64,000 bases of DNA from Candidatus Dojkabacteria bacterium. Its GTDB lineage: Bacteria; Patescibacteriota; Dojkabacteria; B142; OLB20. Position 1 is the first letter of the stretch; each line of letters starts with the position of its first letter. This document shows, in pieces, positions 4,705-56,606 of the stretch. Location of the stretch: positions 12,000 to 75,999 of the forward strand of contig DAOMOX010000004.1 in the NCBI GenBank assembly GCA_035444565.1. Direction: 5' to 3'. The translations under genes were made by a program, and so were the position numbers. Below the pieces are notes generated by a model. The model searched no databases, had not been told where the DNA came from, and saw only the letters and a list, made by a program, of their open reading frames with translations.

Positions 4705-6135
4705 ATGAATTTTAGAAAATTACTAAAACAGGATTTTATTATTACTTTTGTAATATTAGTTTTACTAGGTATTGGGAGCTTAGTGATTTTTTCAACAACA
4801 TATAACACAGAAGGCGCAGATCTCTTAAATAAACAAATTATATTAATAACTATAGGTCTGGTAATCTACTTCGCTCTTATTTTAATCGATATCGATTGGT
4901 TTAAAGTTTTCAGTATCCAATTAATACTATATCTAATAATTATTGCGACTTTACTGTATGCAGTTTTATTTGGATCCACCATTGCTGGTACAAATCGGTG
5001 GATTGATCTCGGATTTTTTGCATTTCAGCCATCAGAGTATTCAAAAGTATTAATCATTATGTTTATTTCACTAATATTTAGTAGTGAAAATCTCCCTCTG
5101 AAAGAAAATTTAAAAGAAATACAAAGTAGATTTCAGAAAGAGTATGGTTTAAAAAATAATTTTAAAGAAACTCTCAAAAAAATAGCTAACGACCGAGAGT
5201 TTCGAGGACTATTCTATGTCGCATTATATGTATTCCCTATTGTCATATTGACTTTTATTCAACCATCACTCGGCAACACTATCATAATTATAGGTTTAAC
5301 ATTTTTCACATTATTTTTCTCAACAAAATATCAAACACAAATTCTGAAAATATTAATTTTAGGACTATTAACGTTTCTATTTATTAGAAATTTTATAAGC
5401 TTTGATACCGGAACAGCGTCGTTTTCATTTTCAACAAACATCAATAATTTATATTTTTTAATTATTACAGTTCTATTATTTTTACTTTTGGCATATTTTA
5501 TGAAAGTCAAATGGTGGGTAGTATTAGGTGTGGTTTTGACAACGACAATTTTCTTGTTTGGTTCAATCTTTGCTTGGAATCAACTATTAGGAAATTATCA
5601 AAGAGAACGTGTACTTACTTTTATCGAAGGTCCTGAAGCAGACCCGCTAGGGAGTGGTTACCAGATAATTCAATCTAAGATTGCAATTGGCTCTGGTCAA
5701 TTATTTGGAAGAGGCTTTTTACAAGGAACTCAAAGTAGTCTCCACATATTGACCCAGGCACATACGGATTTTGCCTTTGCTTCGATGAGTGAACAATTCG
5801 GATTTATTGGTGCGTTATTGTTATTATCAACATATCTAACACTATTATTTAGAATATTAAAGATTGCGAAAGAAACAAAAAGTGATTTTGGAAGAAATAT
5901 GTCTTTTGGAGTTGTTGGATTATTACTAATACATATTTTTATTAATATTGGTATGAATCTCGGTAAATTACCAGTTACAGGTATTCCACTCCCTTTGGTC
6001 AGTTATGGAGGTAGCTCAGTTCTTATGACTTTGATTGTCTTAGGATTAATACAATCTGTTCATGCGTCACGTCGTCCCGTTGACATGGCAGACAGTTTGA
6101 TGTTAACATCCTTAGCAGGGAATAAATCCGAGTAG
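4705..6135 (+). CDS. SEDS-family peptidoglycan polymerase (RodA/FtsW-like), divergent from the class A PBP
   Basis: Multi-TM. C-terminal SEDS signature GSGYQIIQSKIAIGSGQLFGRG…LPVTGIPLPLVSYGGSS. Carries a charged insertion of about 100 aa in the middle. Confidence 0.85.
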   Translation: MNFRKLLKQDFIITFVILVLLGIGSLVIFSTTYNTEGADLLNKQIILITIGLVIYFALILIDIDWFKVFSIQLILYLIIIATLLYAVLFGSTIAGTNRWIDLGFFAFQPSEYSKVLIIMFISLIFSSENLPLKENLKEIQSRFQKEYGLKNNFKETLKKIANDREFRGLFYVALYVFPIVILTFIQPSLGNTIIIIGLTFFTLFFSTKYQTQILKILILGLLTFLFIRNFISFDTGTASFSFSTNINNLYFLIITVLLFLLLAYFMKVKWWVVLGVVLTTTIFLFGSIFAWNQLLGNYQRERVLTFIEGPEADPLGSGYQIIQSKIAIGSGQLFGRGFLQGTQSSLHILTQAHTDFAFASMSEQFGFIGALLLLSTYLTLLFRILKIAKETKSDFGRNMSFGVVGLLLIHIFINIGMNLGKLPVTGIPLPLVSYGGSSVLMTLIVLGLIQSVHASRRPVDMADSLMLTSLAGNKSE

Positions 6136-22073: not shown

Positions 22074-22106
22074 AAAACAGAAGAGTATTTTAACCTTGGG
22101 TAAAAA

Positions 22107-41900: not shown

Positions 41901-44900
41901 CCTGTCGGGGGGACTCAGCAAGAAACAACTATAGTGCACAGCGGTCAATCATCAATTAAACACAACCTAAACTCACTAAACACTTCAATAGGAACAAATC
42001 TAAATACAAATCCTCCTACAGGAAGTTACTTTGTAGTCGGAGGACACTTTTACGGTGTACCAAATGGTAACGGTAAAAATCAACTTAGTGCCCATAATTA
42101 TTCAGATTTACAACATCAGCCATTACAAAGGCAGTTATTGGGTTTAAAGATAGCTGAATGGCACCATACAGTAGGTGTATATCGGAAGGCACAGGGAAGT
42201 AACACAATTTGGGGTGTAGGTTTAATTGAGGGAACAGGAGTTCATCCAGTATATTCTGACGATCTGTATGCTATTTCTTTGAGTGATGTCTCCCTCAATG
42301 TGAGTCCTGCGAGTGAAGTTAATAGTACAGAAACGACAGGTATAAGGGTTGATGGAAGAGATGTGCTAAGTCAACCCATAACGGGCTTATCAGCTGATAA
42401 AGGACTTGTAAAGTTTAAGTTCACTCCGAGACATAGCTTTAGTATTGCAGATAAGTTCGGAGTAGCAAATCCAGTTATTGTTACACTTACATATGATGGA
42501 AATAGCTATATTAAAATTCAAAAGCAAGACCCAACGACGCTTCGAATGATTGTAAAATTTAATGATAGCCAATCTCTAAATCTTGATTGGAATAACGCTA
42601 TTTTAAATGCTGGCACATCTTATGACTTTGAGATACGTTATTATTCAGGTGGAACTATTAGTTTATCGGTTAATGGAGAAGTAAAAGCGATAGCTTCTGG
42701 TGCCACAAATTTCGCTAACGTTCCAAATACAGCGTATTTTGGTTCTGATGGAGGTGCGAATGTCTATGACTCAACTATTAATAGTTTTGTTTCTTTAACA
42801 CCTACAGAAAATCTAACACAATCAAATCTAAAATTTGGGACAAGGAGTCTTAAACTAGTGAATAGTGGAGCTTCACCGGACGAATATGTAACGGACTTTA
42901 CCTCTACGACGAATGCAGCACATACAGTTAGTGCATATATTTTCAATGCGACCTCTGGGGATATTGGAGAAGCAGTAAGCACCTCTGTCGCACAAATAAT
43001 TTTAGATGGAGAATTACAAACGACTCAGTACGAGGATGCTGGAGGAGGTTGGTGGAGGTTGTTAAGTAGGATAAATAAAATTTATGGAGATTATCCAACT
43101 ACTAATATGGATTCTGACCAAGGCCTTTTCACAGGTACATCAAACAGGCTTCTTTCACAAAGCATTAAACCAACCCAAAACCTTCAAACAGTTCAGGTTG
43201 TAATTCCTTTGAAAAAGGTAGGTGCTGGAACTCCTACAACTACCCATTATCAAGTTCGTATCAATACAGATATTGGTGGAGCTCCATCCGGGACTCTTCC
43301 TCCCGGTGGACATTCTTCTTGTATAGCAGTAACTACAAGTACCTCTTATCAAAATATAAGTTTTACTATACAAACAAGTCTCGCAGCTAATACAACATAT
43401 CATTTGGTATTAACCCCATACGTAAATAGTAACTGTAGCACTTTGCAAACAACCGCTGATCCTACAAACTACATAGCATGGGGATATGATGGATCAACTT
43501 CAAGTTACCTACCTGGTGAGAGATCGATATACGATGGAAGCACTTGGACCCAACAAACCTCAAAAGATCATATTTTCACACTGTACACCGGGAGGACTAT
43601 GGTTGTTGGTTTACGTGTTATGCCAGGTAAAAGTGTTTATATGGATGGGGTGCAGGTTGTAAGTTCTACTTCTCTTTCTAACCCATTGCCTCATACTTAC
43701 ACAGATGGTAGTCTGGGTGCTGGTTATGGATGGACCGGGGAAGAACACAACTCTACAAGTACTCGAACACGAGACTCTCTATACTATCCCGTTCAAGACT
43801 CTTTTGGTCCTACTTCGGGAACAGTGAGCTTTTGGTTTAAACCATACAGGCCATTTGGAAGCGGATATGATCAGTCTGCTCAACACTGGATATATTCTTC
43901 ACATACAACTCAGGGTTCACAATCCTCGGTAAGTGCTTATGTTGATAGTGGGAGAAATTTAAACTTTAGGTTGGCAAATGATGCAAACCAAGTTTTTGAT
44001 ATAAGTCAGGGACCCTGGAGTGCAGGAATATTTCAAGTACAAAAATGGCACAATATGGTACTTGTTTGGGATGGGACAAAGTTCAGCGCATATATAAATA
44101 ATGTATTGTATGGAGAAATTAACTATACAGGTACACTGACAATTAATAACGCCAATATGGGCATAGGGTCTACTTCAGGATGGGCTCCAGCTTTTGGAAC
44201 AATCTCGGATTTCAGAATCTATAACAACTCATTAGATGTAAATGAAGTAGGATACCTCTATCAATCCGGCCTCTCTACGCACACCCAAAGTGATATCGAT
44301 GATAAGAAATACAAAACTACTGCCGATTATGAATCTGGAGTACTTGATCTCGGGAATGCTGGACAATGGGGGAACTCACCAAATTTGTTGATTACTGAAG
44401 CTTTAAACGGAAATACCATCAATTACCAAACTCGGAGTTCAGAGGATAACCTCGTATGGTCTGATTATGCTGCCGTTAGCGGTGACACACCTAATCTAAC
44501 GATTTCAAGCCCTCCAAAAAGATATCTACAGGTAAAGGCAACTTTGAATTCACCAAACCAAAACACGACTCCTGAGTTTAATGGTGCACAAATCAATTAC
44601 GTTCAAGATGCAATACCACCAGAGGTTAACGCTACAGAAACAACTATGAAAAGAACAGTCTCTGGGGATACTATAATAGAAAATAACTTTTCAAATTCTC
44701 AAGCTCCGTATTTCAGCTGGGTTGAGGGTGGAGATGATGCCGATGGGTCTGGACTTCGTGGATATTGTTTATATTTAGGTCCAGACATTGCGGGAAATCC
44801 AGCAAATGATAAAGGACTTTTGGGTTCAAGTCCTGGTTCAACTGCAAATACGACGTGTCCTTTTGTGGTAACTACAAATTCCATTGATTTTGCAAATACA

Positions 44901-47213
44901 AATCTAAGAGGAAACACATGGTTACAATCAACTACTGATCCATATTACATAGTTATCAGGGCTGTTGATAATACTGGAAATGTTTACGACCTAGAGCCAG
45001 AAATATTCGGCTTCAAGTTTGATAACACTCCTCCTACTAATCCTAGCGGTTTATTTGCCCCTGCCAGTTACCAGAGATCTTTCGATAGTTTTGTAATATC
45101 ATGGCCAGCCGATGGGACAAATATGGCTCAAGACACACATTCATTAGTAAAAGGTTTCCAATACAAACTTGGTACAAACGGTACTTGGTATGGAGGTGGA
45201 CACACCGGAGATCAAGATTGTAATGACGTTTTGACAACAAATACCTACGCGCTTGATGCCAACTTCGATAACCTACCGTCTGGAGAAACTCCGTTTTATC
45301 TTAGGACTCTTGACTATGCGTGTAATACATCCGCTTCGGCAATTTCGGCAATCTTAAAATACAACTCGACTGCACCGTCAGCTCCGCGAGATCTGTCGGT
45401 TACTCCAGTAACTAACGATAAAAATGAGTTCTCTTTTACTTGGTTGACCCCAGAAATATACCAGGGAGCGGAATCCAACTTGTCATATTGTTACACAGTT
45501 AATACTCTTCCTACGTCTGGTACTTGTATTTTTACAAGCAGTAAATCATTAAATCCTGATGCATTTGCAACACAACCTGGAGAAAATACATTCTATGTAG
45601 TAAGTCGTGATGAGGCCTCAAATATTAACTATGGGGATTATGCATCAATAAAATTCTACGCCAACACATCAGCCCCTGGTGTTCCTAGAAATTTAGATGT
45701 TGCAGATATTTCTGTTAAAACAACTAAAAACTGGAGACTGACCGTATCGTGGGACGAACCAGAAGACTTAGGTGCTGGAGTTGCAAAATACTTTATCTAT
45801 AGATCATTTGCTGAAAATGCTAATTGTAGTGAAAACTTCTCTTTATTTGGAAAAGTTGGAGAAACTGCTGGAGGCTCTTATGTTGACACAAATCTTCAAC
45901 AAAAAGATCATTTCTATTGTGTGAGAGCATGCGATTCGACAAATAACTGTTCTGCAGTGTCTTCGACGGGTAGTAACTTCCCTGATGGTAAATTTACTAG
46001 TCCTGCGATACTTGAATCAGCCCCTGTTGTAAGTAGTGTTTCAACAAGAAGTGCGAGGATTAGCTGGATAACAGATCGAGATTCAGACTCAAGAATTTCA
46101 TATGGATTGGCAAGCAATGATTATTTCAAAGAAGAAGTTGGAAATTCAGAGCAACGAATTGATCATGATTTGATACTTACAAATCTAGAGCCTGGAACAA
46201 CATACTATTTCCAAGCTAAATGGACAGATGAAGATGGAAACTTAGGATTATCCGACGAATATACATTTAAAACTGCACCACCCCCAAGTGTGAAGGATGT
46301 TGTGGTCAGTAGTGTTGGCATTAGTACTGCAGTTATCAACTTCACGACGACTGGTTCATCAAAGGTAAACTTCCTCTATGGTACTTCCGTAAGTTTTGGA
46401 TCAAGTAAAGAAATCGCAACTAGTCCTCTTGAGTCAAGATACACTACCCTACTTGATGGTTTATCAGAAGGAAGTAAGTATTATTTCAGAGTTGATACTG
46501 AAGATGACGAAGGCTATGTTTATGAAGGTACTGTTCTTGATTTCAATACATTGCCACAACCAAAATTATCGAATGTGCGAATTCAACAAGTGAAAAATGC
46601 TGCTCAACCAACAGTCTTAGTCTCCTGGGAATCAAACACAGAAGTCACCTCTGTGGTTAGTTTATTCCCTGAGGGTAAAGCAGATTTGATTAGAGAGGAA
46701 GTTAATTTAGATTTAAAAGGTGGCGAACATCAGATGATTATTCGTGGGCTGTTACCGAATACTGTGTATGAGTTATTAGTTAAGGGGTCTGATAAATTAG
46801 GAAATCAAGCAACATCAACTGCACAGAGAATAACAACTGCAACTGATACTAGACCTCCTGCAATTTCAAACGTACAGATTGAAGCTGGTAAAGGTAATGT
46901 TACTGATAGTTCTCAATTCATAGTTACATGGACAACAGACGAGCCCACCACTTCACAAGTTGAATATGGAGAAGGTACAGGTAGTAGCTATCCACAGAGA
47001 TCACAATTGGATAGCAATTTTACACTTGATCACACCATCGTAATTTCTGGTTTAGCACCTGGAAAGGTTTACCATTTGAGAGCAGTTTCAACTGACGATG
47101 CAGAGAACACAACATACTCTCTAGACTATGTCGCAATTACTCCAAAAGAGTCTAATAGTGCAATAGAGCTTGTGATTAGTAGCTTGTCTAGGGTGTTCTC
47201 CTTCCTGAGATAA
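38994..47213 (+). CDS. Giant (2739 aa) TM-anchored cell-surface protein: DUF2341-like, multiple LamG/ConA-like jellyrolls, CBM4/9-like modules, FN3 domains and four C-terminal PAP-N/FN3-like repeats
   Basis: Basic N-terminus then TM ([19 protein letters not shown]). DUF2341-like aa ~130-255 (…[12 protein letters not shown]…[11 protein letters not shown]). LamG-like TIEFFVKNN…[19 protein letters not shown] and [12 protein letters not shown]…[19 protein letters not shown]…[11 protein letters not shown]-like [21 protein letters not shown]3 [14 protein letters not shown]…FSFTWL and [11 protein letters not shown]…[10 protein letters not shown]. Four ~95-aa repeats [17 protein letters not shown]…[28 protein letters not shown]…[24 protein letters not shown]…[26 protein letters not shown]…[16 protein letters not shown]. 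Confidence 0.8.
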
Positions 47214-47216
47214 ATT

Positions 47217-48506
47217 TCATCGACTGCCTATAACCGGAATCTCCTCCCACCTTGTAGTATATCTCGGTGAACGAAGTGCCTGTTCTTTGATTGGATTCAA
47301 GAAAACCATTTGATTCGCATACTTAACTGTGCCTTTTCCCCAGATAGAGTTGAGTTTATCAAACGATTTCATAAGGATTCTCTGTTTTATATCTTCTTGA
47401 GGATTTGGGGTAGTGAAAATGTTTTGTTGGTATTCGCCTTTATTGTAGAAATTCTCCAAAAACACCCCTGCCCTTTTGTATTTGTATCCTGAGCGGAAAA
47501 TCTGCCTCAGGCCATTGAGCGCATTCTTCGTCAAGAGTGGTGTGTAATCGGTAGGTGTTTCGAGTTTTATCAAGTATGAATTAGAGTATCGTCCTTCGGG
47601 GGTAAATCTATCTGTTGTAAGGAAAACCCAAATCCTGGATGTTACTGAACCCTGTGCTCTTAGGCTTCTGGAGGCACTATCGGTGAAGCGTGCTACCGCT
47701 TGAGCGACTTGGTTGTATTCGGTGTAAGCTTTCTTGAACGTACGGCTACAGAGTATGCCTTTTTTCGAGCTACGATGTGGGTTGATTGGGTAACATCGAA
47801 TACTATGGAGTTCAAGCCAGGTACGTTCGAGCATAACTCCATATTCTTGTCGAAGTAGATGTCTATCAGCTTTGAGGAGGCTTGGGATGTCTGCAATATC
47901 AAAAATCTTTAATCTTCTAGCAATACGTCCTCCTATTCCCCAAATGTCATCAATGTCGAGATGTTTTAAATATTCAATATGTCTATAGTCGGTAATGTCA
48001 TTTATCTGATAAACCCCATCATTTTCGATGAATTTCTTGGCGATTTTGTTAGCAAGTTTGGCTAAGGTTTTGGTGTTTGCTAGTCCGATTGAGATTGGAA
48101 TACCTGTCCAGCGATAAATTGTCTCTTTCATTTCTATTGAGTTCCGAAGCATTCTCTGTGGTGACGTTATAGGAATTCGTAGAAATGCCTCATCAATAGA
48201 ATATATCTCAATTTCCTGACAAAACTCATGTAGTGAACGAAATACTCTCTCTGACATATCCTGATAAAGTGTAAAGTTTGCGGAGCGCACAGCGACGTTG
48301 TTCTCGATAAATCGATCTTTCCATTCAAATAGAGGAGCTCCCATGGGGACTCCCATGGCTTTCAATTCGTTTGATCTGGCGATGACACATCCGTCATTAT
48401 TAGAGAGAACCGCTGTCGGGCGATTACGGAGTGTCGGATCAAAGACTCTCTCGCAAGAAACATAGAAATTATTGCAGTCGACGATACCATAAATATCGGA
48501 AGACAT
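47217..48506 (-). CDS. umuC: Y-family translesion DNA polymerase, UmuC-like (Pol V catalytic subunit)
   Basis: IYGIVDCNNFYVSCERVFDPTLRNRPTAVLSNNDGCVIARSNELKAMGVPMG aligns closely with E. coli UmuC (MFALCDVNAFYASCETVF…VVVLSNNDGCVIARN). Confidence 0.85.
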   Translation of the reverse strand: MSSDIYGIVDCNNFYVSCERVFDPTLRNRPTAVLSNNDGCVIARSNELKAMGVPMGAPLFEWKDRFIENNVAVRSANFTLYQDMSERVFRSLHEFCQEIEIYSIDEAFLRIPITSPQRMLRNSIEMKETIYRWTGIPISIGLANTKTLAKLANKIAKKFIENDGVYQINDITDYRHIEYLKHLDIDDIWGIGGRIARRLKIFDIADIPSLLKADRHLLRQEYGVMLERTWLELHSIRCYPINPHRSSKKGILCSRTFKKAYTEYNQVAQAVARFTDSASRSLRAQGSVTSRIWVFLTTDRFTPEGRYSNSYLIKLETPTDYTPLLTKNALNGLRQIFRSGYKYKRAGVFLENFYNKGEYQQNIFTTPNPQEDIKQRILMKSFDKLNSIWGKGTVKYANQMVFLNPIKEQALRSPRYTTRWEEIPVIGSR

Positions 48507-48976
48507 CAGAGTTCATGAATATTGTAGGCAACTACACCCCATATCTCGAAGTCGTTCTCCGGAGTAATACGATAAAGTGTGGATCTGGTATTCCAGGGCG
48601 TCAAATATGTGATGTGTTTAGATATTAATATCTTTTTGATTAATAATTCACCATCTAGGCTCACGACAACGATTGATTTATCTGTAATGGGTAATGAACG
48701 ATCCACTACAAGTAAATCTCCTTTGTGGATTCCCCATTTTCTCAAGTCATTATCCCCTGCTTTCATAAAAAATGTACTGGAAGGCTTTTTAATAAGATAT
48801 GACTGAATATCGAGTTTTAGGTCAGATTCGTTTCGAATAGGAGTCGAAAAAGCTACTGTAGAAAGTTCGAGATCCTTTCGAGATTCATTTTTCTGTTCTT
48901 CGTACAATCTAGTCGAACGGAAGTCCTCCTGATAGTCTAAGAATGTTGTTTCGGGTGCGTAGATATTATTCTGCAT
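48506..48976 (-). CDS. umuD: UmuD-like S24-fold protein with substituted nucleophile (GDND instead of GDSM) and no Ala/Cys-Gly cleavage site
   Basis: KAGDNDLRKWGIHKGDLLVVDRS…VVVSLDGELLIKKI aligns with UmuD [21 protein letters not shown]…AAVDGEFTVKKL. The Lys is conserved and the Ser is Asn. Start shares 48506 with the umuC stop and the other end overlaps the lexA stop. Confidence 0.7.
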   Translation of the reverse strand: MQNNIYAPETTFLDYQEDFRSTRLYEEQKNESRKDLELSTVAFSTPIRNESDLKLDIQSYLIKKPSSTFFMKAGDNDLRKWGIHKGDLLVVDRSLPITDKSIVVVSLDGELLIKKILISKHITYLTPWNTRSTLYRITPENDFEIWGVVAYNIHEL

Positions 48977-49628
48977 GTTTGGTTGAGAAATTAGGGTTAT
49001 CTAAAACTGCTACGACTTTGCCGTAGATATCTGTATCTCCTAGAGAAGATGCATCTAGGTAGAATGGTTTGTGTCGTGTGTTGGTGGACTCTGGGTAAAG
49101 TACCACGATGTTTCGGTCTTTTTTGATAGTTTTGATAGTTGCGCAGTTATCGATAATTGCTAAAACAACATCGCCATTTTTGATATCAACGTTTTTTGCT
49201 ATGACTGCATACTTGCCATCCTCGAGTGTTCCTCCATCAACTTCACGCATGTTCATAGAATCTCCTTTTATCATAAGGGCGAAGACGTCCTTGGTGACTG
49301 GAAGGAGACTGCGATTAATACGTAAATAGCCAAGTTGTTGTTCCTGGGCTATCACCATAGGTGCTCCAGCATTTGCATAGCCGAGGATATTTACATCTAT
49401 AAACATCTGTCCGGACTGTGTTTCCCGAAGAGTTATACCTCGGGACGACGAAGATCGATTTATCAATCCTTTTTTCTCAAGTGCTTGTAGATGTTTAACG
49501 ACTGCTCTGCGAGTGATACCAAGTGCTCGCTCCATCTCTGTAAGTGTGGGTGCTTGGCCAGTTTCGATAATGAAGGACTTTATAAGGGATAGTATTTCGT
49601 TTTGTCTTGTGGTTATGGTATGTGTCAT
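48966..49628 (-). CDS. lexA: LexA repressor (wHTH + S24 autopeptidase, intact)
   Basis: Likely start is the second Met (MTHTITTRQNEILSLI…). The ORF-track start at 49685 would translate the upstream repeat region. wHTH LTEMERALGITRRAVVKHLQALEKKGLI. Cleavage site ANAGAP, GDSM and IKTIKK are conserved. Confidence 0.8.
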   Translation of the reverse strand: MTHTITTRQNEILSLIKSFIIETGQAPTLTEMERALGITRRAVVKHLQALEKKGLINRSSSSRGITLRETQSGQMFIDVNILGYANAGAPMVIAQEQQLGYLRINRSLLPVTKDVFALMIKGDSMNMREVDGGTLEDGKYAVIAKNVDIKNGDVVLAIIDNCATIKTIKKDRNIVVLYPESTNTRHKPFYLDASSLGDTDIYGKVVAVLDNPNFSTKHAE

Positions 49629-49629
49629 A

Positions 49630-49673
49630 TAGGTATACTTAATATACTTAAAATGGTATACAAGGTATACAAG
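49630..49673. promoter_or_regulatory. Repeat-rich candidate LexA operator region at the lexA start: TAGGTATACTT, (TATACTTAA)x2, (GTATACAAG)x2
   Basis: Three GGTATAC cores plus tandem direct repeats directly abut the lexA ATG. The 11-mer TAGGTATACTT recurs upstream of dnaE. Confidence 0.35.
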
Positions 49674-49741
49674 AATGTCAAGCAATTAATATAATTTTAT
49701 GAACTTTAATATTGGAAGATTGAAGTACTAAGTTATCTAAG

Positions 49742-50071
49742 TTAGATATATTTCTCACCGAGTTTCTTGTGATTCTTGCCCCAAGTAGACATTGAAACTA
49801 AAACAGGTCTTAGAGTTTTCCCGTAAGGAGTGATTGAATATTCAACCTTTGGTGGGATCACGGGAAATATCTTTCGCTTTATGAGTCCATCTTTTTCAAG
49901 TTCACGTAACTGCGATGTAAGCATTTTTTGTGTAATACCGGTGATTTCTTTCTGTAATTCACTAAATCTTAGAGTTTTTTGATCAAGATGCCACAGAAGA
50001 AGTGGTTTCCACTTTCCTCCTATTACTTTCAAAGTAATATTTACCGGGTTATCACTGTTGCAGACTCTCAT
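49742..50071 (-). CDS. HxlR-family (MarR-like wHTH) transcriptional regulator
   Basis: TLKVIGGKWKPLLLWHL…LRFSELQKEITGITQKMLTSQLRELEKDGLIKRKIFPVIPPKVEYSITPYG is the HxlR/DUF24 signature. Start trimmed to the internal Met (ORF track extends to 50167 and would overlap the divergent neighbour). Confidence 0.75.
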   Translation of the reverse strand: MRVCNSDNPVNITLKVIGGKWKPLLLWHLDQKTLRFSELQKEITGITQKMLTSQLRELEKDGLIKRKIFPVIPPKVEYSITPYGKTLRPVLVSMSTWGKNHKKLGEKYI

Positions 50072-50192
50072 TTGACGAATATTAGTATATATAATGTAAG
50101 TATAGCATATAAAAGTAAGTACTTGTATTAAATATAACATATCTTGTATGGTGTTTGTATCCTTCATTACTTTATTTATTATTTATATAACT

Positions 50193-50801
50193 ATGTGGAA
50201 CAAAATAGCGGATGATGCAACAATTATGAAAACAGTAAAAGCTTTAGAAGCCAACCAATTTTTAGTCACAGTGGTAAATAATGCCATTGAAGCAAAAAAG
50301 GAAATCGAAACATTAATCCCAGCAGGCTCACAGGTAATGCAAATGAGTTCGGAGACATTAGATAATACAGGAATTTCCGATATGATTAATTCAGATAACT
50401 TTGATGCAATTAAACCAAAATTGTGGGCAAAAGGTGAGAATGCACTCTCTCCTCAAGAGAAAGCTATTGCAGCAAACTTGGCTAAATATTCAGTCGGGAG
50501 TCTACAAGCCATCACAGGAAATGGAGAATTAGTAATTGCTTCAAACACAGGGAGTCAGATGGCTGCTTATGTTTATGGGTCAGAAAAAGTAATATTCGTC
50601 GTAGGTGCTCAGAAACTAGTTAAAGATATTGATGCAGCTATGAAGAGGATTTATGGTCACGTTTTACCTCTTGAAAGTGAACGAGTGAAAAAAGCTTACG
50701 GTATGGAGAAAAGTAATGTAAGTAAGTTGTTAATAATCAATAAAGAGACACAACCTGAAAGAATTCATATAGTAATCGTTAAAGAGAGTCTCGGGTTCTA
50801 A
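50193..50801 (+). CDS. LUD-domain (LutC/YkgG-like) protein
   Basis: MWNKIADDATIMKTVKALEANQFLVTVVNNAIEAKKEIETLIPAGSQVMQMSSETL matches the LUD (lactate-utilisation) domain layout. Start trimmed to the internal Met. Divergent from the HxlR regulator. Confidence 0.55.
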   Translation: MWNKIADDATIMKTVKALEANQFLVTVVNNAIEAKKEIETLIPAGSQVMQMSSETLDNTGISDMINSDNFDAIKPKLWAKGENALSPQEKAIAANLAKYSVGSLQAITGNGELVIASNTGSQMAAYVYGSEKVIFVVGAQKLVKDIDAAMKRIYGHVLPLESERVKKAYGMEKSNVSKLLIINKETQPERIHIVIVKESLGF

Positions 50802-50845: not shown

Positions 50846-51109
50846 TTGTTAAACTTTAATAAAATGGCTGGTAAAGAAGGTGGAGATAATCCAAACCATG
50901 TATGGGAGAAAAGGAATGTAACAACTGGAGAAGAACCAATAGAAGTATCCGAACAGCAAAGGGCATTCGAAAATAGAATAAATGATATACCTGAAGATGA
51001 GTGGAACCAGGATCCTCAGCAAGCCTATGGTCGTGCAGTTGTAGGCGATTTAGACGAAAAATTTAACCACAAAATCAAAAATGAAAGAGGAAGAACTGAC
51101 TCCGTATAA
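50846..51109 (+). CDS. Small hydrophilic hypothetical protein
   Basis: 87-aa acidic ORF overlapping the pip start. No motif. Confidence 0.25.
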   Translation: MLNFNKMAGKEGGDNPNHVWEKRNVTTGEEPIEVSEQQRAFENRINDIPEDEWNQDPQQAYGRAVVGDLDEKFNHKIKNERGRTDSV

Positions 51110-52019
51110 CAACGGCTACATCCAAGTTAGCGATAAGCACAAACTCTACTACCACCAATACGGAAATCCCGAAGGTGAAGTCGTGCTTCAAATTCATGGT
51201 GGACCAGGGTCAAACTCAAAACCAAAACATGTCAATCCGTATGATTTGAAACGTTTTAGAGTAGTGCTTTTTGATCAAAGAGGTTGTGGTAAGTCAGAAC
51301 CTGCTGGTTTACTTGAAGAAAATACTACGACAGATACAGCTGAGGATATTGAGAAACTTAGAGAGTACCTAAAGATTGAAAAATGGTACATTCATGGACC
51401 GAGTTGGGGGTCAACCATAGCGTTGCTGTATGCTCAAAAACATCCTGAAACTGTAAAGAAATTATTATTAAGAGGGGTTTTCTTGGCATCAAAAGCAGAA
51501 AATGATTGGCTCTTTAAGTACGGTGCCAATCAACTATTTCCTGATAAATTTGAAGATTTGATGAATATTATCCCAAGTGATAAAAGAGAAGATTATTTAG
51601 AATATTTATATGAAATCGCAAAAGTTAATAATAAAGAACTAAAAGAAAAGTTATTTACAAACTTTGGGAAGTGGGAGGGTTCAATTCTTAGTTTGTTCCC
51701 CGAAGAAGATGAAGCAAGTGAAGTTGATATCGAGAAAGAAATTGTATCATCATCAATAATGCTTCATTATTCAGTTAACCATTATTTCCTCGAAGACGAA
51801 GAAATATTAAAGGATGAAAATATCCAAAAGTTAAAAGATATTCCCATGGTGATAGTAAATGGCAGGTACGACATTGTCACACCGATTATTTCTGCTTGGA
51901 AGTTGCATAAGGCACTCCCCCACTCGTTTTTAGATATTGTCCACCTAGCTGGTCATCATGGAAGTACAGACATTGAGATGGTGAAGGCGATACAGAAGTG
52001 GATTGATTTCGACTTCTGA
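51081..52019 (+). CDS. pip: Proline iminopeptidase (S33 family)
   Basis: HGGPGSNSKPKHVNPYD…LFDQRGCGKSEP…GPSWGSTIALLYA are canonical prolyl aminopeptidase motifs. Confidence 0.85.
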   Translation: MKEEELTPYNNGYIQVSDKHKLYYHQYGNPEGEVVLQIHGGPGSNSKPKHVNPYDLKRFRVVLFDQRGCGKSEPAGLLEENTTTDTAEDIEKLREYLKIEKWYIHGPSWGSTIALLYAQKHPETVKKLLLRGVFLASKAENDWLFKYGANQLFPDKFEDLMNIIPSDKREDYLEYLYEIAKVNNKELKEKLFTNFGKWEGSILSLFPEEDEASEVDIEKEIVSSSIMLHYSVNHYFLEDEEILKDENIQKLKDIPMVIVNGRYDIVTPIISAWKLHKALPHSFLDIVHLAGHHGSTDIEMVKAIQKWIDFDF

Positions 52020-52054
52020 GTTTATCCTGTGGCTTGTGCCACCCGGAGGTCATC

Positions 52055-52304
52055 CCGTGGTTTAACCACGGGATCCTGAGCTTTCCTGATTAGTACGTTT
52101 GAGAGGATATACGGGACTCCGTGGTCCCTCCCTTTCGGCAGGGCAGGCAAGCAAGGAGAGACAGCGCGAGGTTCGTTCTCCTTAGTCTTCCCGTGGCTTG
52201 ACCACGGGAACCCGAGCTTTCCTGACTAGCACGTGTGAAAGAATATACGGGACTCCGCGGTCCCTCCCTTTCGGCAGGGCAGGCAAGCACGGAGAGACGG
52301 CAGG
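52055..52304. repeat. Two tandem ~135-bp GC-rich (~60%) highly structured repeat units (A 52055-52189, B 52190-52304) plus a partial hairpin copy at 52025-52045
   Basis: Direct alignment of the two units gives roughly 85-90% identity, with substitutions concentrated in hairpin loops (CCCGTGG-TTTAA-CCACGGG versus CCCGTGG-CTTGA-CCACGGG; GGGAC-TCCGTG-GTCCC versus GGGAC-TCCGCG-GTCCC). The region lies between convergent 3' ends. Confidence 0.7.
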
Positions 52305-52312
52305 TATGGATA

Positions 52313-54070
52313 TTAACTAATTGCACCACTAGACTGAAGCTCCCATAAGTACTTGTAAATTCCATTTTCGCGGTGAATCAAATCTCTGTGATTACCTTCT
52401 TCAACGATTTGGCCTTTATCGAAAACGAGGATTCTATCAACTTTTTCAATTGTTGAGAGTCTGTGTGCAATTACTATAGTTGTTTTATCTGCTGAAAGTT
52501 CCCAGAATGCTTGTTGGATTTCACGCTCGGAAATAGAATCTAGGTTACTCGTTGCTTCATCGAGGATGATTATAGGTGCCTCTTTAATGAATGCCCGAGC
52601 TATTGCTAATCGCTGTTTTTGACCACCTGAGAGTTTGACTCCTCTTTCTCCAATTTCAGTTTCGTATTTTCTAGGGAGCTGAGTAATGAAACTGGTCAAG
52701 TAGGCCTTTCTCGAGGCTTGATCTAATTGATCTGCTGAGTATTTCCCGGCATTTCCATAACCGATGTTATAACCAATAGTGTTATTGAATAATGAAGCCT
52801 CCTGAGGTACCATAGCGATTAATTTCCGTAGTGATTGTTTAGGGATATCTTTGATGTTTACACCATTTATAAAAATATCTCCTGTAGTCGGGTCAAAAAA
52901 TCGCATCAACAATTTCACAATTGTAGTCTTTCCTACACCAGAATGTCCTACAAGTGCGACAGATTCACCTTCACGGATTGTGAGGTTTAAGTTGTTAAAA
53001 ATTGGTCTTTTTTCATCATATCCGAAAGTTAGATTTCGAAATTCAATCTCCAACTTGCCATCTTTATCATCCAGTAACTTTTGGTTTTCGGACGATATTC
53101 GTTTAAATTTATCAACAACAGTAATTTCTTCATCCAATATACTCATATAAGACTTTAGATCTTCATAATTTTTTGCAAGTTCACGGAATTGGAATACAAG
53201 ATATTTTATTTTTGGGTAAAACGTATTGGCGAAAGATATTGCAAGAATAAAGTCTCCTGCGTTTATTACACCATTTACTAAATCCACTATCGCTACAATT
53301 ATCGTTATTAGAAAAGCAAAATTGCTAATTCCACCATTACTCAAATCAATTACTCTGAATGTCTTAGCGTAGTTAATACAATCGTGATACCACTTATCAA
53401 CAACTTTGGAAAATCGTTTTTGCTCGTATTTCTCATTGGCAAAGTATTTAACTGAGTCAAATGCAATCATATTGTCAACAATTTGGGAATTAACATCGTC
53501 CTCAGTCCTATTTAAAACCTTTCTTTTGTTTACATTGTTCTTTACCGTGAAGTACATGACTGTTGCATTTACAAAGAATGCGATTACTGTGATGATTATT
53601 AGTTTAGGATAGATTGTTGAGTAGATTGCCACTATAATTACGAAGTCGAATACTACACGAGACATCCAAATATTAAGCTCATCATAAAAAGAAAAAAACG
53701 CCCCTTCTCCTCTTTTGAAAATGCTAATTAATTTACCTGAAGATTTATTTGCATGATAGCTGAAATCTAAATCATGTAAGTGTCTGAGTACGTCTTTCTT
53801 TAGCTTCGCTGCTGCTCCAAAAAGTGCAAAATCAGAGATGTACATCGTGAATGTGTCACCAAGATATGTGACCAAAACAATCGATGATATGAGTAAAATT
53901 GATCTGTATAAAAATTCGGTTTCTCCCTCAAGAGCAAAATTAACAACATCACGGAATAAAAGTGGCAGTATGTTACTTAAAATTGCCATGAAAATATTCA
54001 AAATCGTGGCAGTGACAAAGAAATACTTAAATTTCCAAACGTATCTGTAAAATTTACCTAAGATTTTCAT
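52313..54070 (-). CDS. ABC exporter, fused TMD-NBD (MsbA/type I exporter-like)
   Basis: Six-TM N-domain. Walker A GHSGVGKTT, signature LSGGQKQRLAIARAF, Walker B IIILDEATSNLD. Confidence 0.9.
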   Translation of the reverse strand: MKILGKFYRYVWKFKYFFVTATILNIFMAILSNILPLLFRDVVNFALEGETEFLYRSILLISSIVLVTYLGDTFTMYISDFALFGAAAKLKKDVLRHLHDLDFSYHANKSSGKLISIFKRGEGAFFSFYDELNIWMSRVVFDFVIIVAIYSTIYPKLIIITVIAFFVNATVMYFTVKNNVNKRKVLNRTEDDVNSQIVDNMIAFDSVKYFANEKYEQKRFSKVVDKWYHDCINYAKTFRVIDLSNGGISNFAFLITIIVAIVDLVNGVINAGDFILAISFANTFYPKIKYLVFQFRELAKNYEDLKSYMSILDEEITVVDKFKRISSENQKLLDDKDGKLEIEFRNLTFGYDEKRPIFNNLNLTIREGESVALVGHSGVGKTTIVKLLMRFFDPTTGDIFINGVNIKDIPKQSLRKLIAMVPQEASLFNNTIGYNIGYGNAGKYSADQLDQASRKAYLTSFITQLPRKYETEIGERGVKLSGGQKQRLAIARAFIKEAPIIILDEATSNLDSISEREIQQAFWELSADKTTIVIAHRLSTIEKVDRILVFDKGQIVEEGNHRDLIHRENGIYKYLWELQSSGAIS

Positions 54071-54072
54071 AG

Positions 54073-54648
54073 TTATATACTAATTGAGTCTTCAAATGTG
54101 CCATTCGAAGTATCGGATACATTTTTGTCTGTTGTCTTTTTATTATCTTGCTCTTTTTTCTCTGTAGCTGGCTTTTTTCTAGCAATTAGAATTAGTATCA
54201 AATTGGCGAATAAGGATATGAATATAGAAGAGTTTAAAAGAACTAATATAGACGTTGCTAATGATTTTTCAATATCTTTGGAAAATAGAAAATCTACCTC
54301 AAAAATAAACAATCCTGTTAAATAATAAAATGTAATTACATAGTATGCTACTAAACAGAAAATAATCGATGCAGTCGAAATGATAGGAACTAGAATATAA
54401 TTGAATCTTCTATTAAATAATCTAGAATACTTGAATATATACCCAACAATGAGCCAGGTGAATATGTTACTTATAATAAAAAAAGAAATTGAAACGTATA
54501 GATTATCAAATCCTCCTCGTATCATTAGAAGAGGTTCTTCTTCAATAAAAACACCCAAGAGATTATAAGCGACCACGAGAATGGTTAATAATACTCCAGG
54601 TAGAAAGACTTTAGTCAAAGTAAATAATGATTTCAAAAAGTTTCGCAT
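54073..54648 (-). CDS. Hypothetical membrane protein with charged C-terminal tail
   Basis: Four to five TM segments. No motif. Confidence 0.4.
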   Translation of the reverse strand: MRNFLKSLFTLTKVFLPGVLLTILVVAYNLLGVFIEEEPLLMIRGGFDNLYVSISFFIISNIFTWLIVGYIFKYSRLFNRRFNYILVPIISTASIIFCLVAYYVITFYYLTGLFIFEVDFLFSKDIEKSLATSILVLLNSSIFISLFANLILILIARKKPATEKKEQDNKKTTDKNVSDTSNGTFEDSISI

Positions 54649-56606
54649 TCGCCTTTTACTTTAATTTGATTTGTTTGGATAAATTTGTTGATTTCACTAA
54701 TAATAAGTGGATCAATTTCTTTTTTGTCTGGTGTGTAATTTATTAAGATCGGTTCTGTCGTCAAACCATTACATTCACCGTATTCTAGTACTAATTTTTT
54801 AAGTATAGAAATTTCATTCCAATTTGTATCATTACATTCAAAAATTTTATGTGATTCCTCGATTGTTCTAACTTCTTGAGACCAAAGATTGTTTGGATAT
54901 AGAGTTATTGTAAAAGCATTCATCTCAATAGATGAAAATTGATTTCTATTTTCAATAAAACTCTGGTTAAGACTTCTCGAATAATGATTAATATCTATAT
55001 TATTAATTGGTTGACCTTTCGAATAGACTACATTTGCGGTTTCAATGTATTTATCTAACGAAGTAACAGGATCAGTTGATATAGAAAAATTGCTAATACC
55101 ATTGGTTATGATACTATCAATTTGCTTCTTTTCGGTTATAATATCTAGATTGTCAGTTTGTTTACAATTTGTGTATTTCGATTCAAATTTCGAGTAATCG
55201 TCAATAATTCTCAATAATTCCGCAACATCTAAATTAATAGCGGTATTTGGGTTTTCGATTACTAAATAATCTTTTTCAGAAATTTCTTCTGAATAAATTC
55301 TTTTCATTTCTACCTTGATTTCTTCGTTAAGTTTGTCGGTATTTGATTTCAAAGTGTTAATCTTCTCAGTAGCGTATTCTTTACACTGATCTAAGGCTGA
55401 GGTCATAGATGTAATATTTTTCCTAAGTACAGTGTCTGTTTCTTTGAGCTGGCTAACATATTCATTATATTTATTGATTTTCGGTTTAATCTCATTTTGT
55501 TCGTCATTTAATTTGGATATTTGGTCATTATTACTTCGAATATTTTGGGCTAATAGGTCAATCATCACCGATTTTGAAATTTCAGAAGCATTTATTTTTA
55601 CAATAGAATCTTTTTTATCAATTATGTTTAAAGATTTATCTTGTATTAACCGAACTTCGGCATCACTGTTGTTTAGTAATTTGAGGAATTGGAAAAATTC
55701 GTCTTGATCTTCAAATGCATACCATGTGTTTTTATCATCCAGACTTAAAGAAATCATTTTATCGTCCTTAACAGTCTGCATCTGTGCTCCATAGAAATTA
55801 TAAGTCTGTAAAGTTGTTAATGCTTGGTAATCTTCGTTTAAATCTCTTTGTAGTATCGCAATTTCTTGTTGCTCAGTAGTTTTTTTAGATTTTAAAAATT
55901 GTAAATCTTGCATAATTTTTTTCGTTTCTTCCCCTAGGTCAATATTCTCTTTGCTTAGTTTAGTTATAATCTCATCAGATTCTGTAAGTTTTAAGGAGGA
56001 TGTATTATAAATAGAGGTAAGACTATCCGTATATGTTCTTACTTTGTCATAACTTTCGTTTATGTATTTAGTTGAGGAAGTAATGGTTTGTAAGGAAGGA
56101 GATTCACATTGGATAGATCCATTCAGAACTCCATCGATTATATTCAAATTAATCTTATCATCCAAGATATTATTAATTGCATCAATATTCATGTAATATT
56201 CTCTTTCTTTGGCACAGTTATTAATGTATCTATTCAATTCTGTTTCAAAGTCCTCTGTTATTTCTGCTAAATCTTCAAGTTTTTTCAATTTAGATGTTAT
56301 CTCAGTTGTATCATCTAGGAATCTCTGTCCATCCTTGGAATTACTAAATGATTGACAAGCTAAATTAGCTGATTCTACTAATGTTACAAAGGTCGTAAAT
56401 TCATCCTTATTTACCTGATCTTTTTCGTCGAGAGTAGATATCTTAGAAGTTTCAATATTGTTGTATTGGATTTTAAGCTCACTTAAAAGTGGTAAGTAAT
56501 TATTCCCTTCAAATTCAGTTATTGACAGGGAGTTAACCTTCGTTTGAAGTGAGGAGATACCAAAAAATATCATGATTATGAAAGTTAATACTCTTGCTAA
56601 TTTCAT
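54633..56606 (-). CDS. Secreted 657-aa coiled-coil-rich, Asn-rich protein with eight spaced cysteines
   Basis: Signal peptide MKLARVLTFIIMIFFGISSLQT. Long heptad-like stretches. Cysteines in LACQ, NNCAKE, IQCESP, DQCKEY, TNCKQT, FECNDT, GECNGL, GECETF. Confidence 0.5.
   Translation of the reverse strand: MKLARVLTFIIMIFFGISSLQTKVNSLSITEFEGNNYLPLLSELKIQYNNIETSKISTLDEKDQVNKDEFTTFVTLVESANLACQSFSNSKDGQRFLDDTTEITSKLKKLEDLAEITEDFETELNRYINNCAKEREYYMNIDAINNILDDKINLNIIDGVLNGSIQCESPSLQTITSSTKYINESYDKVRTYTDSLTSIYNTSSLKLTESDEIITKLSKENIDLGEETKKIMQDLQFLKSKKTTEQQEIAILQRDLNEDYQALTTLQTYNFYGAQMQTVKDDKMISLSLDDKNTWYAFEDQDEFFQFLKLLNNSDAEVRLIQDKSLNIIDKKDSIVKINASEISKSVMIDLLAQNIRSNNDQISKLNDEQNEIKPKINKYNEYVSQLKETDTVLRKNITSMTSALDQCKEYATEKINTLKSNTDKLNEEIKVEMKRIYSEEISEKDYLVIENPNTAINLDVAELLRIIDDYSKFESKYTNCKQTDNLDIITEKKQIDSIITNGISNFSISTDPVTSLDKYIETANVVYSKGQPINNIDINHYSRSLNQSFIENRNQFSSIEMNAFTITLYPNNLWSQEVRTIEESHKIFECNDTNWNEISILKKLVLEYGECNGLTTEPILINYTPDKKEIDPLIISEINKFIQTNQIKVKGECETF

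What the first reader, a model, noticed from the sequence alone, without database searches (positions are those of the whole stretch)
47217..49685. lexA / umuD-like / umuC cassette in which the UmuD homolog has lost both the nucleophile serine (GDSM to GDND) and the Ala/Cys-Gly cleavage dipeptide
Three overlapping co-directional genes on the minus strand. LexA retains the A-G cleavage site, GDSM and the KK dyad. The 156-aa UmuD-like protein aligns residue-for-residue with the E. coli UmuD catalytic core and keeps the general-base Lys (LIKKI). It has Asn at the Ser60 position, and the cleavage-site region reads VAFSTP instead of C/A-G. By established S24 mechanism this protein cannot self-cleave. 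It would therefore be a constitutively full-length (or constitutively UmuD-prime-like) accessory subunit for the UmuC-like polymerase. This is a non-canonical way to gate translesion synthesis. Local GC appears higher than the window average, hinting at acquisition.
Basis: partly seen in the sequence, partly recalled or inferred. Interest (0 to 1): 0.7.

Follow-up and report, generated by a model that had tools for sequence, protein, structure and literature searches.

The report
Protease-dead UmuD in lexA-umuDC operon
A Candidatus Dojkabacteria (candidate phyla radiation) genome carries a lexA-umuD-umuC DNA-damage operon in which the UmuD-like subunit, under strong purifying selection, has lost the residues needed for the self-cleavage that normally switches on the error-prone polymerase, so the polymerase is probably controlled by LexA repression alone.

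Summary
Three overlapping minus-strand genes encode a canonical LexA (48966-49628), a 156-aa UmuD-fold protein (48506-48976) and an intact UmuC (47217-48506).

Gly58 aligns with Asp75, Met61 with Leu78, and Cys24-Gly25 with Val41-Ala42. Lys97 is kept as Lys114.

This is neither an error nor decay. All 14 clade members (55-98% identity) share the changes, and dN/dS against the nearest relative is 0.02. The cassette sits in the same chromosomal neighbourhood in the relatives examined, behind a conserved promoter carrying three GTATACC repeats.

The raised GC is real, but it recurs in five relatives, so it does not indicate recent acquisition.

The best reading is a cleavage-independent Pol V accessory subunit gated only by LexA transcription. 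Phage P1 HumD is a precedent: it is pre-truncated and also lacks GDSM.

Other UmuC-linked UmuD homologues (Saccharimonadia, Chitinophagaceae, Terriglobia) also lack the dyad, so this is a new variant of a known kind.

Why a 9-41 residue N-terminal extension is retained is unresolved. Nothing has been tested biochemically.

The parts
49653..49681 (-). sigma-70-type promoter of the operon: -35 TTGACA (49681-49676), 17-nt spacer, -10 TACCAT (49658-49653)
   Evidence: Consensus scan scores 10 of 12. TTGAC and TACCAT are invariant in six related loci whose synonymous sites are saturated (A5).
49655..49670 (-). putative LexA operator O1: GTATACC-TT-GTATACC (equivalently the palindrome GTATAC-N3-GTATAC), lying in the spacer and overlapping the -10
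   Evidence: Perfect match to GTATACNNNGTATAC. It is near-invariant across six loci: one half-site differs by one base in two loci (A5). Three of only six GTATACC heptamers in the 64-kb window lie within 39 bp here. LexA binding is inferred, not tested.
49632..49647 (-). second, weaker operator-like site; its right half GTATACC (49638-49632) is invariant and lies between the -10 and the lexA ATG
   Evidence: One-mismatch match. GTATACC is invariant in six loci while the left half varies.
48966..49628 (-). lexA, 220 aa, canonical self-cleaving repressor: wHTH, Ala87-Gly88, Ser124, Lys166
   Evidence: TIGR00498 at 132.5 bits, above cutoff. Pfam LexA_DNA_bind plus Peptidase_S24. Alignment to E. 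coli LexA structures. Residue coordinates.
48506..48976 (-). umuD-like gene, 156 aa. S24/UmuD' fold, but Val41-Ala42 replaces Cys/Ala-Gly, Asp75 replaces Gly58 and Asp77 replaces Ser60 (codon 48748-48746). Lys114 is kept (codon 48637-48635). Residues 1-39 are a poorly conserved extension.
   Evidence: AF2 core pLDDT is mostly 82-95 and the N-terminus is disordered. The top Foldseek hits are UmuD' and UmuD. dN/dS is 0.020.
48839..48859 (-). conserved arm motif T40-V-A-F-S-T-P46. It is the homologue of UmuD Q23-C-G-F-P-S-P29, the segment that in UmuD' forms the N-terminal arm.
   Evidence: F43 and P46 are invariant across all UmuD homologues aligned. T40 and V41 are conserved within the clade. 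The role of the arm is taken from Pol V models in PMC11791011.
47217..48506 (-). umuC, 429 aa. Catalytically intact Y-family polymerase: D10, D105-E106 in SIDEAF, beta-clamp-like motif QQNIF (360-364), and the C-terminal SPRYTTR/DUF4113 tail that binds UmuD'.
   Evidence: Pfam IMS, IMS_C, IMS_HHH and DUF4113. NF002955 at 343.6 bits.

Best explanation
The cassette is a chromosomal, vertically inherited SOS operon of a Dojkabacteria-type lineage. It encodes a Pol V-like translesion polymerase whose small subunit is a pseudo-protease.

Shown by sequence:
- One promoter with conserved GTATACC repeats drives lexA, umuD* and umuC as overlapping, probably translationally coupled, genes.
- LexA has everything needed for RecA*-stimulated self-cleavage.
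- UmuD* has the UmuD' fold and the conserved F..P arm motif. The scissile bond, the Gly before the nucleophile and the Ser itself are replaced by Val-Ala/Ser, Asp and Asp/Glu.
- UmuC keeps its catalytic carboxylates, its clamp motif and its UmuD'-binding tail.

Inferred:
- DNA damage leads to RecA* and then LexA cleavage, which derepresses the operon.
- UmuD* dimers bind UmuC directly, with no proteolytic maturation step. The delay and irreversibility that UmuD-to-UmuD' cleavage provides in E. coli are absent.
- Activity is shut off when newly made LexA, the first gene of the same transcript, re-represses the promoter.
- The retained Lys114 probably pairs with the conserved acidic residue 77 as a structural salt bridge in the former active-site cleft.
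For: - Operon anatomy and overlaps.
- Conserved promoter and operator across six loci.
- LexA is canonical.
- UmuD* is closest in family and fold to UmuD/UmuD': NF007621 at 95.9 bits against 35 bits for LexA; phmmer to 1i4v/1umu at E of about 1e-15; Foldseek TM 0.78-0.84.
- The whole catalytic apparatus is replaced in all 14 clade members.
- Purifying selection: 7 nonsynonymous against 56 synonymous differences, dN/dS 0.020, comparable to lexA at 0.023 and umuC at 0.044.
- UmuC is intact and keeps the DUF4113 tail.
- lexA-umuD*-umuC is conserved in every clade locus examined.
- Precedent: P1 HumD starts at MGFPSP, also lacks GDSM and keeps the Lys. It is a functional UmuD' substitute (PMC7092418; annotation).
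- The N-terminal extension varies from 9 to 41 residues within the clade, so its length is not constrained.
- Accessory subunits that are not proteases are already proposed for Gram-positive UmuC-like polymerases (YolD/YqjX; PMC6511836, PMC12926913).
Against: - In E. coli, non-cleavable UmuD (S60A) does not support mutagenesis (PMC3901139).
- Current Pol V models place the free N-terminus of one UmuD' arm next to the UmuC active site (PMC11791011). An uncleaved extension might interfere with that.
- No clade member lacks the extension entirely; the minimum is 9 residues.
- The tip of the extension (MQxxxYxxxTxxxxD) is conserved in the long forms, which hints at a function.
- AF2 gives no confident position for residues 1-50, and no complex could be modelled.
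- There is no biochemical or expression evidence.
Confidence: 0.55

Rival explanations
1. UmuD* is a permanent 'full-length UmuD' rather than a UmuD' equivalent. It would bind UmuC (and perhaps the replisome) as a brake or checkpoint or fidelity factor, keeping the polymerase non-mutagenic or slowing replication after damage, as uncleaved UmuD2C does in E. coli.
For: An N-terminal extension is always present, with a conserved tip. E. coli UmuD S60A suppresses mutagenesis, and full-length UmuD with UmuC acts in a checkpoint (PMC3901139). The strand preceding the old cleavage site (L..TV) is conserved, as expected if it still docks in the cleft.
Against: A catalytically intact UmuC is kept under purifying selection in the same translationally coupled operon. 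A subunit that only inhibits it is hard to reconcile with that. The extension shrinks to 9-10 residues in some members. The E. coli clamp and degron motif TFPLF is absent.
Confidence: 0.15
2. Activation still involves freeing the arm, but not by self-cleavage. Either another protease trims the extension, or RecA* binding reversibly displaces the arm from the dead cleft (a non-destructive switch).
For: The arm motif and the residues just upstream of it are conserved. An acidic residue at position 77 and Lys114 are strictly conserved, rather than drifting as in other dyad-less lineages. This suggests the cleft still has a job. Pol V models need a free arm terminus (PMC11791011).
Against: No protease gene is associated with the cassette in any locus. 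The P1-P1' residues Val-Ala/Ser are unsuitable for S24 enzymes such as the co-encoded LexA; this is established S24 specificity, not tested here. No canonical start codon at the V41 codon or in the eight codons before the arm is conserved across the six loci that could give an internally initiated short form. The idea is entirely speculative.
Confidence: 0.15
3. UmuD* acts mainly on LexA. As a protease-dead S24 domain made from the same mRNA, it would heterodimerise with LexA and modulate repression or cleavage.
For: It is co-encoded with lexA and overlaps it by 8-11 nt in all clade loci. S24 domains dimerise through their C-terminal domains (established knowledge).
Against: It is much closer to UmuD than to LexA (96 against 35 bits). 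It is equally tightly coupled to umuC (1-nt overlap in four of six loci, 37 nt in L003 and L073). A related LexA with the same promoter exists without it and without umuC (L130), so UmuD* tracks UmuC rather than LexA.
Confidence: 0.05
4. Residual autoproteolysis using a different nucleophile or a shifted register, or an artefact (sequencing error, wrong frame, pseudogene).
For: Lys114 is retained. Clade-specific invariant Ser and Thr residues exist (S101, S119, T123, T126, S132).
Against: The register is fixed by conserved anchors with identical spacing on both sides. The scissile bond and the Gly of the G-D-S-M turn are also lost. The substitutions are identical in independent assemblies, and the exact protein is seen on 19 contigs. 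dN/dS is 0.02 and the ORF is uninterrupted.
Confidence: 0.03

Closest known systems
E. coli UmuD / UmuD' (Pol V accessory subunit; plasmid homologues MucA, RumA, SamA)
   Same: Same fold and family, with the best sequence and structure matches. The gene lies immediately upstream of umuC. The F..P arm motif and Lys97 are conserved. UmuC keeps its UmuD'-binding tail. Control by LexA.
   Different: No Cys/Ala-Gly bond, no Ser60, no Gly58, no Met61. NF007621 scores 95.9 bits, below the 110 cutoff. lexA itself is the first gene of the operon. The N-terminal 39 residues are unrelated to the UmuD arm and lack TFPLF.
Bacteriophage P1 HumD (NCBIfam NF051876)
   Same: A natural UmuD' homologue that needs no cleavage (PMC7092418; annotation). 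It also lacks the GDSM motif (AADSH-H) while keeping the Lys.
   Different: HumD is genetically pre-truncated and starts at MGFPSP. The Dojkabacteria protein keeps 41 residues before the equivalent point and has Val-Ala in place of the bond. HumD is a solo phage gene that borrows host UmuC. The HumD model scores only 54.5 bits against a 120 cutoff, and no phage protein exceeds 37% identity over at least 70% of the query (about 42% over partial matches).
E. coli UmuD S60A / non-cleavable UmuD mutants
   Same: Full-length UmuD without a nucleophile.
   Different: The laboratory mutant is defective for mutagenesis (PMC3901139). The natural protein is under strong purifying selection with a co-evolving UmuC, so it is presumably functional.
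Bacillus YqjX/YolD accessory proteins of UmuC-like polymerases
   Same: Small non-protease subunits proposed to bind a UmuC-like polymerase through an N-terminal arm (PMC6511836, PMC12926913). Transcriptional control only.
   Different: An unrelated family (PF08863). Here the subunit is a true S24 homologue that has lost catalysis.
Other dyad-less UmuC-linked UmuD homologues seen here (Saccharimonadia; Chitinophagaceae/Sphingobacteriales; Terriglobia)
   Same: A short S24 protein directly upstream of umuC, with Ser and/or Lys replaced. L064 also has lexA upstream.
   Different: The substitutions differ: Ser to Ala/Gly with Lys to Arg, or no recognisable motif. Many keep A/T-G-F-P. Identity to the window protein is 41% or less, so these are apparently independent losses. 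I found no paper describing them.

Membership tests
Peptidase S24 (LexA/UmuD) homologous family, PF00717 | Sequence match above Pfam gathering score, and the S24 beta-fold | tested here: met
   57.3 bits against a cutoff of 23.3. The AF2 core matches UmuD', UmuD and LexA C-terminal domains.
Peptidase S24 as an active autopeptidase | Ser-Lys catalytic dyad | tested here: not met
   Ser60 is replaced by Asp77; Lys is present. The position is Asp or Glu in all 14 clade members.
Peptidase S24 as an active autopeptidase | Scissile Ala-Gly or Cys-Gly bond | tested here: not met
   Val41-Ala42 in the window; mostly Val-Ser in the rest of the clade, with single Ile-Ser and Val-Asn variants.
Peptidase S24 as an active autopeptidase | RecA*-stimulated or alkaline self-cleavage | not testable with these tools
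   Needs purified protein.
UmuD, Pol V autoproteolytic subunit (NCBIfam NF007621) | Score at or above the curated cutoff | tested here: not met
   95.9 bits against a cutoff of 110. It is still the best-scoring family.
UmuD, Pol V accessory subunit (functional sense) | Gene adjacent to and co-directional with a UmuC that carries the C-terminal UmuD'-binding tail | tested here: met
   1-nt overlap with umuC. UmuC has DUF4113 (48.7 bits) and SPRYTTR. The arrangement is conserved in all clade loci.
UmuD, Pol V accessory subunit (functional sense) | Conserved N-terminal arm motif (G-F-P-S-P) that inserts into UmuC | tested here: inconclusive
   F43 and P46 are invariant, while G, P and S are changed to A/S, S/A and T. 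Binding to UmuC could not be modelled.
HumD family (NCBIfam NF051876) | Score at or above cutoff, and a pre-truncated N-terminus starting at the Gly of the cleavage site | tested here: not met
   54.5 bits against a cutoff of 120. 41 residues precede the equivalent position.
LexA (TIGR00498), for the upstream gene | Score at or above cutoff; wHTH plus S24 domain with Ala-Gly, Ser and Lys | tested here: met
   132.5 bits against 110.95. A87-G88, S124, K166.
LexA (functional sense) | Binds an operator in its own promoter | tested here: inconclusive
   Conserved GTATACC repeats overlap the promoter. The published Patescibacteria LexA motif (Sanchez-Osuna et al. 2017) could not be read.
UmuC (NCBIfam NF002955 / Pfam IMS family) | Y-family domains, catalytic Asp/Glu, clamp motif, C-terminal extension | tested here: met
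   Four Pfam domains score above cutoff. D10, D105-E106, QQNIF and SPRYTTR align with E. coli UmuC at 38% identity. NF002955 scores 343.6 bits, below its 431 subfamily cutoff.

The most novel reading that the evidence does not exclude
UmuD* may be a reusable, non-proteolytic switch. The old cleavage strand (L..T-V-A/S-F) would still sit in a dead cleft held together by the conserved Asp/Glu77-Lys114 pair. RecA* binding would release the arm reversibly to activate UmuC. More broadly, autoproteolysis would be a lineage-specific add-on rather than a defining property of Pol V small subunits, having been lost or never fixed in CPR, Chitinophagaceae and Terriglobia lineages.
Probability: 0.12. Interest if true: 0.75.

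Novelty: new variant of a known kind. Interest (0 to 1): 0.45.

Why it matters
UmuD self-cleavage is the textbook post-translational checkpoint that delays error-prone Pol V until late in the SOS response.

This is a natural Pol V-type system, conserved under purifying selection, that has removed the nucleophile, the turn Gly and the scissile bond. It still keeps the arm motif, the Lys and an N-terminal extension. That makes a ready-made test of which UmuD features serve proteolysis and which serve polymerase assembly.

It also shows how small-genome CPR bacteria may simplify control of mutagenesis to a single autoregulated lexA-umuDC transcript.

There is a practical point for annotation. Public records call the exact protein 'S24 family peptidase'; near-identical cluster members are called 'LexA family transcriptional regulator' or 'DNA polymerase V'. 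None of these names flags the loss of the catalytic residues, and the closest NCBIfam name, 'autoproteolytic subunit', would also mislead.

The recurrence of dyad loss in other phyla suggests an overlooked class of UmuD pseudo-proteases.

Tried and rejected
- Alternative register putting Asn76 or another residue at the nucleophile position. Rejected: the spacing to conserved anchors is identical on both sides.
- Sequencing or frame error, or a pseudogene. Rejected by conservation in independent assemblies and dN/dS of 0.02.
- Recent horizontal acquisition, suggested by GC. Rejected: the same GC offset occurs in five relatives, four of which share both flanks of the neighbourhood (L002 and the window share the left flank), and no close phage relatives were found. 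The plasmid collection was not searched. Why the cassette stays GC-richer than its flanks despite saturated dS is unexplained.
- Internal translation start that would give a HumD-like short protein. The V41 codons are GTA, GTC or GTT, and no canonical start codon is conserved near the arm across the six loci; L004 alone has an ATG four codons upstream and L003 a TTG.
- Metagenome scan for the 16-mer operator GTATACCWTGTATACC, meant to define a regulon. The 120 or more hits were almost all chance matches. Only L130 carried the same promoter with a lexA.
- Search for further operator copies in the window. Only chance-level hits turned up, at 22100 and 39100.
- The Patescibacteria SOS regulon paper (Sanchez-Osuna, Barbe, Erill 2017) and the HumD paper (McLenigan 1999) are not held in the library.
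- AF2 monomer prediction gave no confident placement of residues 1-50.
Full report
**What is there**

The minus strand of 47217-49685 carries three co-directional ORFs. The first is a 239-aa TTG-initiated ORF whose LexA homology begins at residue 23. The in-frame ATG at 49628 gives a 220-aa LexA (MTHTITT...), and the lexA genes of L002, L003, L071 and L073 start at the corresponding position.

The second ORF (48506-48976, 156 aa) overlaps lexA by 11 nt. The third (47217-48506, 429 aa) overlaps the second by 1 nt (TGATG).

Family scans give these results:
- LexA: TIGR00498 at 132.5 bits, cutoff 110.95.
- Middle protein: Peptidase_S24 at 57.3 bits. Its best NCBIfam match is the Pol V 'autoproteolytic subunit' model NF007621, at 95.9 bits against a cutoff of 110.
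- Third protein: IMS, IMS_C, IMS_HHH and DUF4113. NF002955 (UmuC) scores 343.6 bits.

The window is contig JAJTYI010000009.1, 'MAG: bacterium isolate DTUPAT2'. Public records name the identical protein 'S24 family peptidase [Candidatus Dojkabacteria bacterium]'.

**The catalytic residues**

phmmer against the PDB aligns residues 42-152 with UmuD' (1i4v, 1umu, 1ay9) and UmuD (8gmt) at E of about 1e-15, with no gap through the catalytic motif. MAFFT with E. coli UmuD and 23 homologues gives the same register. So does an hmmsearch column read-out over 292 domains.

| E. coli UmuD | Window protein |
|---|---|
| Cys24-Gly25 | Val41-Ala42 |
| Gly58 | Asp75 |
| Asp59 | Asn76 |
| Ser60 | Asp77 |
| Met61 | Leu78 |
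| Thr95 | Leu112 |
| Lys97 | Lys114 |

The offset is +17 at the conserved anchors on both sides (P48/P65 and G65/G82). Either way there is no Ser, Thr or Cys.

LexA in the same operon keeps Ala87-Gly88, Ser124 and Lys166.

UmuC is 38% identical to E. coli UmuC over its whole length.

**Not an accident**

A search of 5.8 billion proteins found 12 close relatives at 56-98% identity. After them there is a sharp drop to canonical UmuDs at 44% or less. A profile search of 1.84 billion cluster representatives added one more divergent member, P0121.

All 14 clade members share these features:
- (A/S)T(V/I)(S/A)F(S/A)(T/A)P in place of xAGFPSP (the divergent P0121 reads AKVNFTTP).
- Asp at the Gly58 position.
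- Asp, or once Glu, at the Ser60 position.
- Leu or Met at the Met61 position.
- Lys retained.

In the 108 nearest canonical homologues, Gly58 is 100%, Ser60 97%, Met61 99% and the P1 Ala 94% conserved.

Against the nearest relative (L002, a Ca. Dojkabacteria MAG) the gene shows 7 nonsynonymous and 56 synonymous differences. That gives dN/dS of 0.020, compared with 0.023 for lexA and 0.044 for umuC. Synonymous sites are saturated among the more distant members.

AF2 predicts a confident core for residues 55-156 (pLDDT mostly 82-95) and a disordered N-terminus. The best structural matches are UmuD' and UmuD, with TM 0.78-0.84 normalised to the target.

**Genomic context**

lexA-umuD*-umuC, with the same overlaps, is present in every clade locus examined: L002, L003, L004, L071/L072 and L073/L074.

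Several loci share the same neighbourhood:
- Upstream: a gene of about 650 aa, a gene of about 190 aa, an ABC transporter and an alpha/beta hydrolase.
- Downstream: a 134-aa gene, a UvrD/PDDEXK helicase and PGM.

The window keeps the upstream block (51081-56606). It has HxlR and LUD genes inserted next to lexA. On the other side a 2739-aa surface-protein-like ORF converges on umuC. This is a vertically kept chromosomal cassette, not a mobile one. No phage record holds a close relative; the best matches covering at least 70% of the query are 37% identical or less, and partial matches reach about 42%.

lexA and umuC are the two GC-richest ORFs of the window, and GC3 is 2-3 sd above the mean. However, the same +4 to +10 point excess over the flanks occurs in all five relatives. 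It is a property of the cassette in this lineage, not evidence of recent acquisition. I cannot explain why it persists.

**Regulation**

A sigma-70-like promoter lies upstream of lexA: TTGACA, 17 nt, TACCAT (49681-49653). The -35 element and the -10 hexamer are invariant, and the 16-mer GTATACC(W)TGTATACC near-invariant, in six loci whose coding synonymous sites are saturated.

The 16-mer is equally a GTATAC-N3-GTATAC palindrome. It fills the spacer and overlaps the -10. A third invariant GTATACC lies between the -10 and the start codon. Three of the six GTATACC heptamers in the 64-kb window are in this 39-bp stretch.

This is the expected layout for LexA autoregulation, but binding is only inferred. 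A related LexA with the same promoter occurs without umuD*-umuC (L130). The polymerase genes therefore appear to be appended to a housekeeping-type lexA.

**Mechanism**

[quoted passage not shown] Both are lost here, so self-cleavage is very unlikely.

The F and P of the GFPSP arm are retained, and UmuC keeps its UmuD'-binding tail. In current Pol V models one UmuD' arm inserts between the palm and little-finger domains of UmuC, and an armless UmuD' is inactive (PMC11791011, PMC12926913). I therefore favour a cleavage-independent structural subunit, with LexA repression as the only gate (confidence 0.55).

Phage P1 HumD is a precedent (PMC7092418; annotation). It begins MGFPSP, also lacks GDSM (AADSH-H), keeps the Lys, and substitutes for UmuD'.

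The weak point is the N-terminal extension:
- It is never absent. It ranges from 9 to 41 residues.
- Its tip is conserved in the long forms.
- E. coli non-cleavable UmuD is inactive in mutagenesis (PMC3901139).

No canonical start codon is conserved near the arm across the six loci that could give a short form. The rivals I rank lower are a permanent 'full-length UmuD' brake, trimming by another protease or reversible RecA*-driven arm release, and a LexA-modulating role.

**Comparison and novelty**

The same column read-out on 70 species-representative loci found other UmuC-adjacent UmuD homologues without the dyad:
- Nine Chitinophagaceae/Sphingobacteriales loci: TGFGAA, GDAM, and Lys replaced by Arg.
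- Four Saccharimonadia loci (L059, L061, L063, L064) with neither Ser nor Lys, although some keep AGFPNP. L062 keeps Ser but has His for Lys. L064 also has lexA upstream.
- Two Terriglobia loci: GDGM, and Lys replaced by Arg.

The sample is biased by how it was collected, so frequencies are not meaningful. Loss of catalysis in Pol V small subunits is nevertheless clearly recurrent.

I found no paper describing this. The one paper on the Patescibacteria SOS regulon could not be read.

I classify the finding as a new variant of a known kind. It is a true UmuD homologue turned pseudo-protease, with a conserved acidic residue at the nucleophile position and a retained extension, in a lexA-led operon. 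Interest is moderate: it is a clean, testable natural experiment on what UmuD cleavage is for, not a new kind of system.

Noticed in passing
window 52049-52298: A GC-rich 136-bp unit in 1.8 tandem copies (89% match) fills the gap between the convergent hydrolase and ABC-transporter genes. It folds into strong hairpins (minus strand z = -2.5) and matches no Rfam family. It accounts for the GC peak at 51-53 kb and for the spurious 91-aa ORF at 52090-52365.
   Followed up: partly
proteins P0122-P0128, P0132, P0133, P0144 and others: About 20 proteins of 220-285 aa carry two S24/UmuD domains in tandem. In most of them domain 1 keeps the AGFPSP arm but has a degenerate dyad, while domain 2 lacks the arm and keeps Ser-Lys in all 20 (three of the 20 keep the dyad in both domains). 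This fused 'asymmetric UmuD dimer' mirrors the asymmetric arms in Pol V models.
   Followed up: partly
L025, L028, L029, L031, L032, L034-L037; L059, L061-L064; L065, L066 (around position 6000 in each): UmuC-adjacent UmuD homologues in Chitinophagaceae/Sphingobacteriales, Saccharimonadia and Terriglobia also lack the Ser and/or Lys of the dyad, each with different substitutions. These look like apparently independent losses.
   Followed up: partly
window 47217-49628, and the cassettes of L002, L003, L004, L071, L073: The cassette is 4-10 GC points richer than its flanks in every relative, and GC3 is raised too, even though synonymous sites are saturated between them. The cause is unexplained.
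   Followed up: partly
L064 5230-5275: Upstream of the lexA of a different Saccharibacteria MAG lies GGTGTAGTGGGTGTAGT, a 9-bp-period direct repeat of TGTA. It resembles the window's TTGTATACCTTGTATACC and may be a shared operator architecture.
   Followed up: no
window 38994-47213 (+): A 2739-aa ORF with Laminin_G_3 and FN3 / purple-acid-phosphatase-N-like domains converges on umuC, with only 3 nt between the two stop codons. In relatives this position holds a 134-aa gene and a UvrD/PDDEXK helicase instead.
   Followed up: no
window 49742-50801: Divergent, overlapping HxlR-family regulator (minus strand) and LUD-domain (plus strand) genes lie between the hydrolase gene and lexA in the window. 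They are absent at this position in L002, L071 and L073.
   Followed up: no
L130 1859-2545 (-): A related LexA has the same TTGACA...GTATACCATGTATACCAT promoter but no umuD or umuC downstream.
   Followed up: partly
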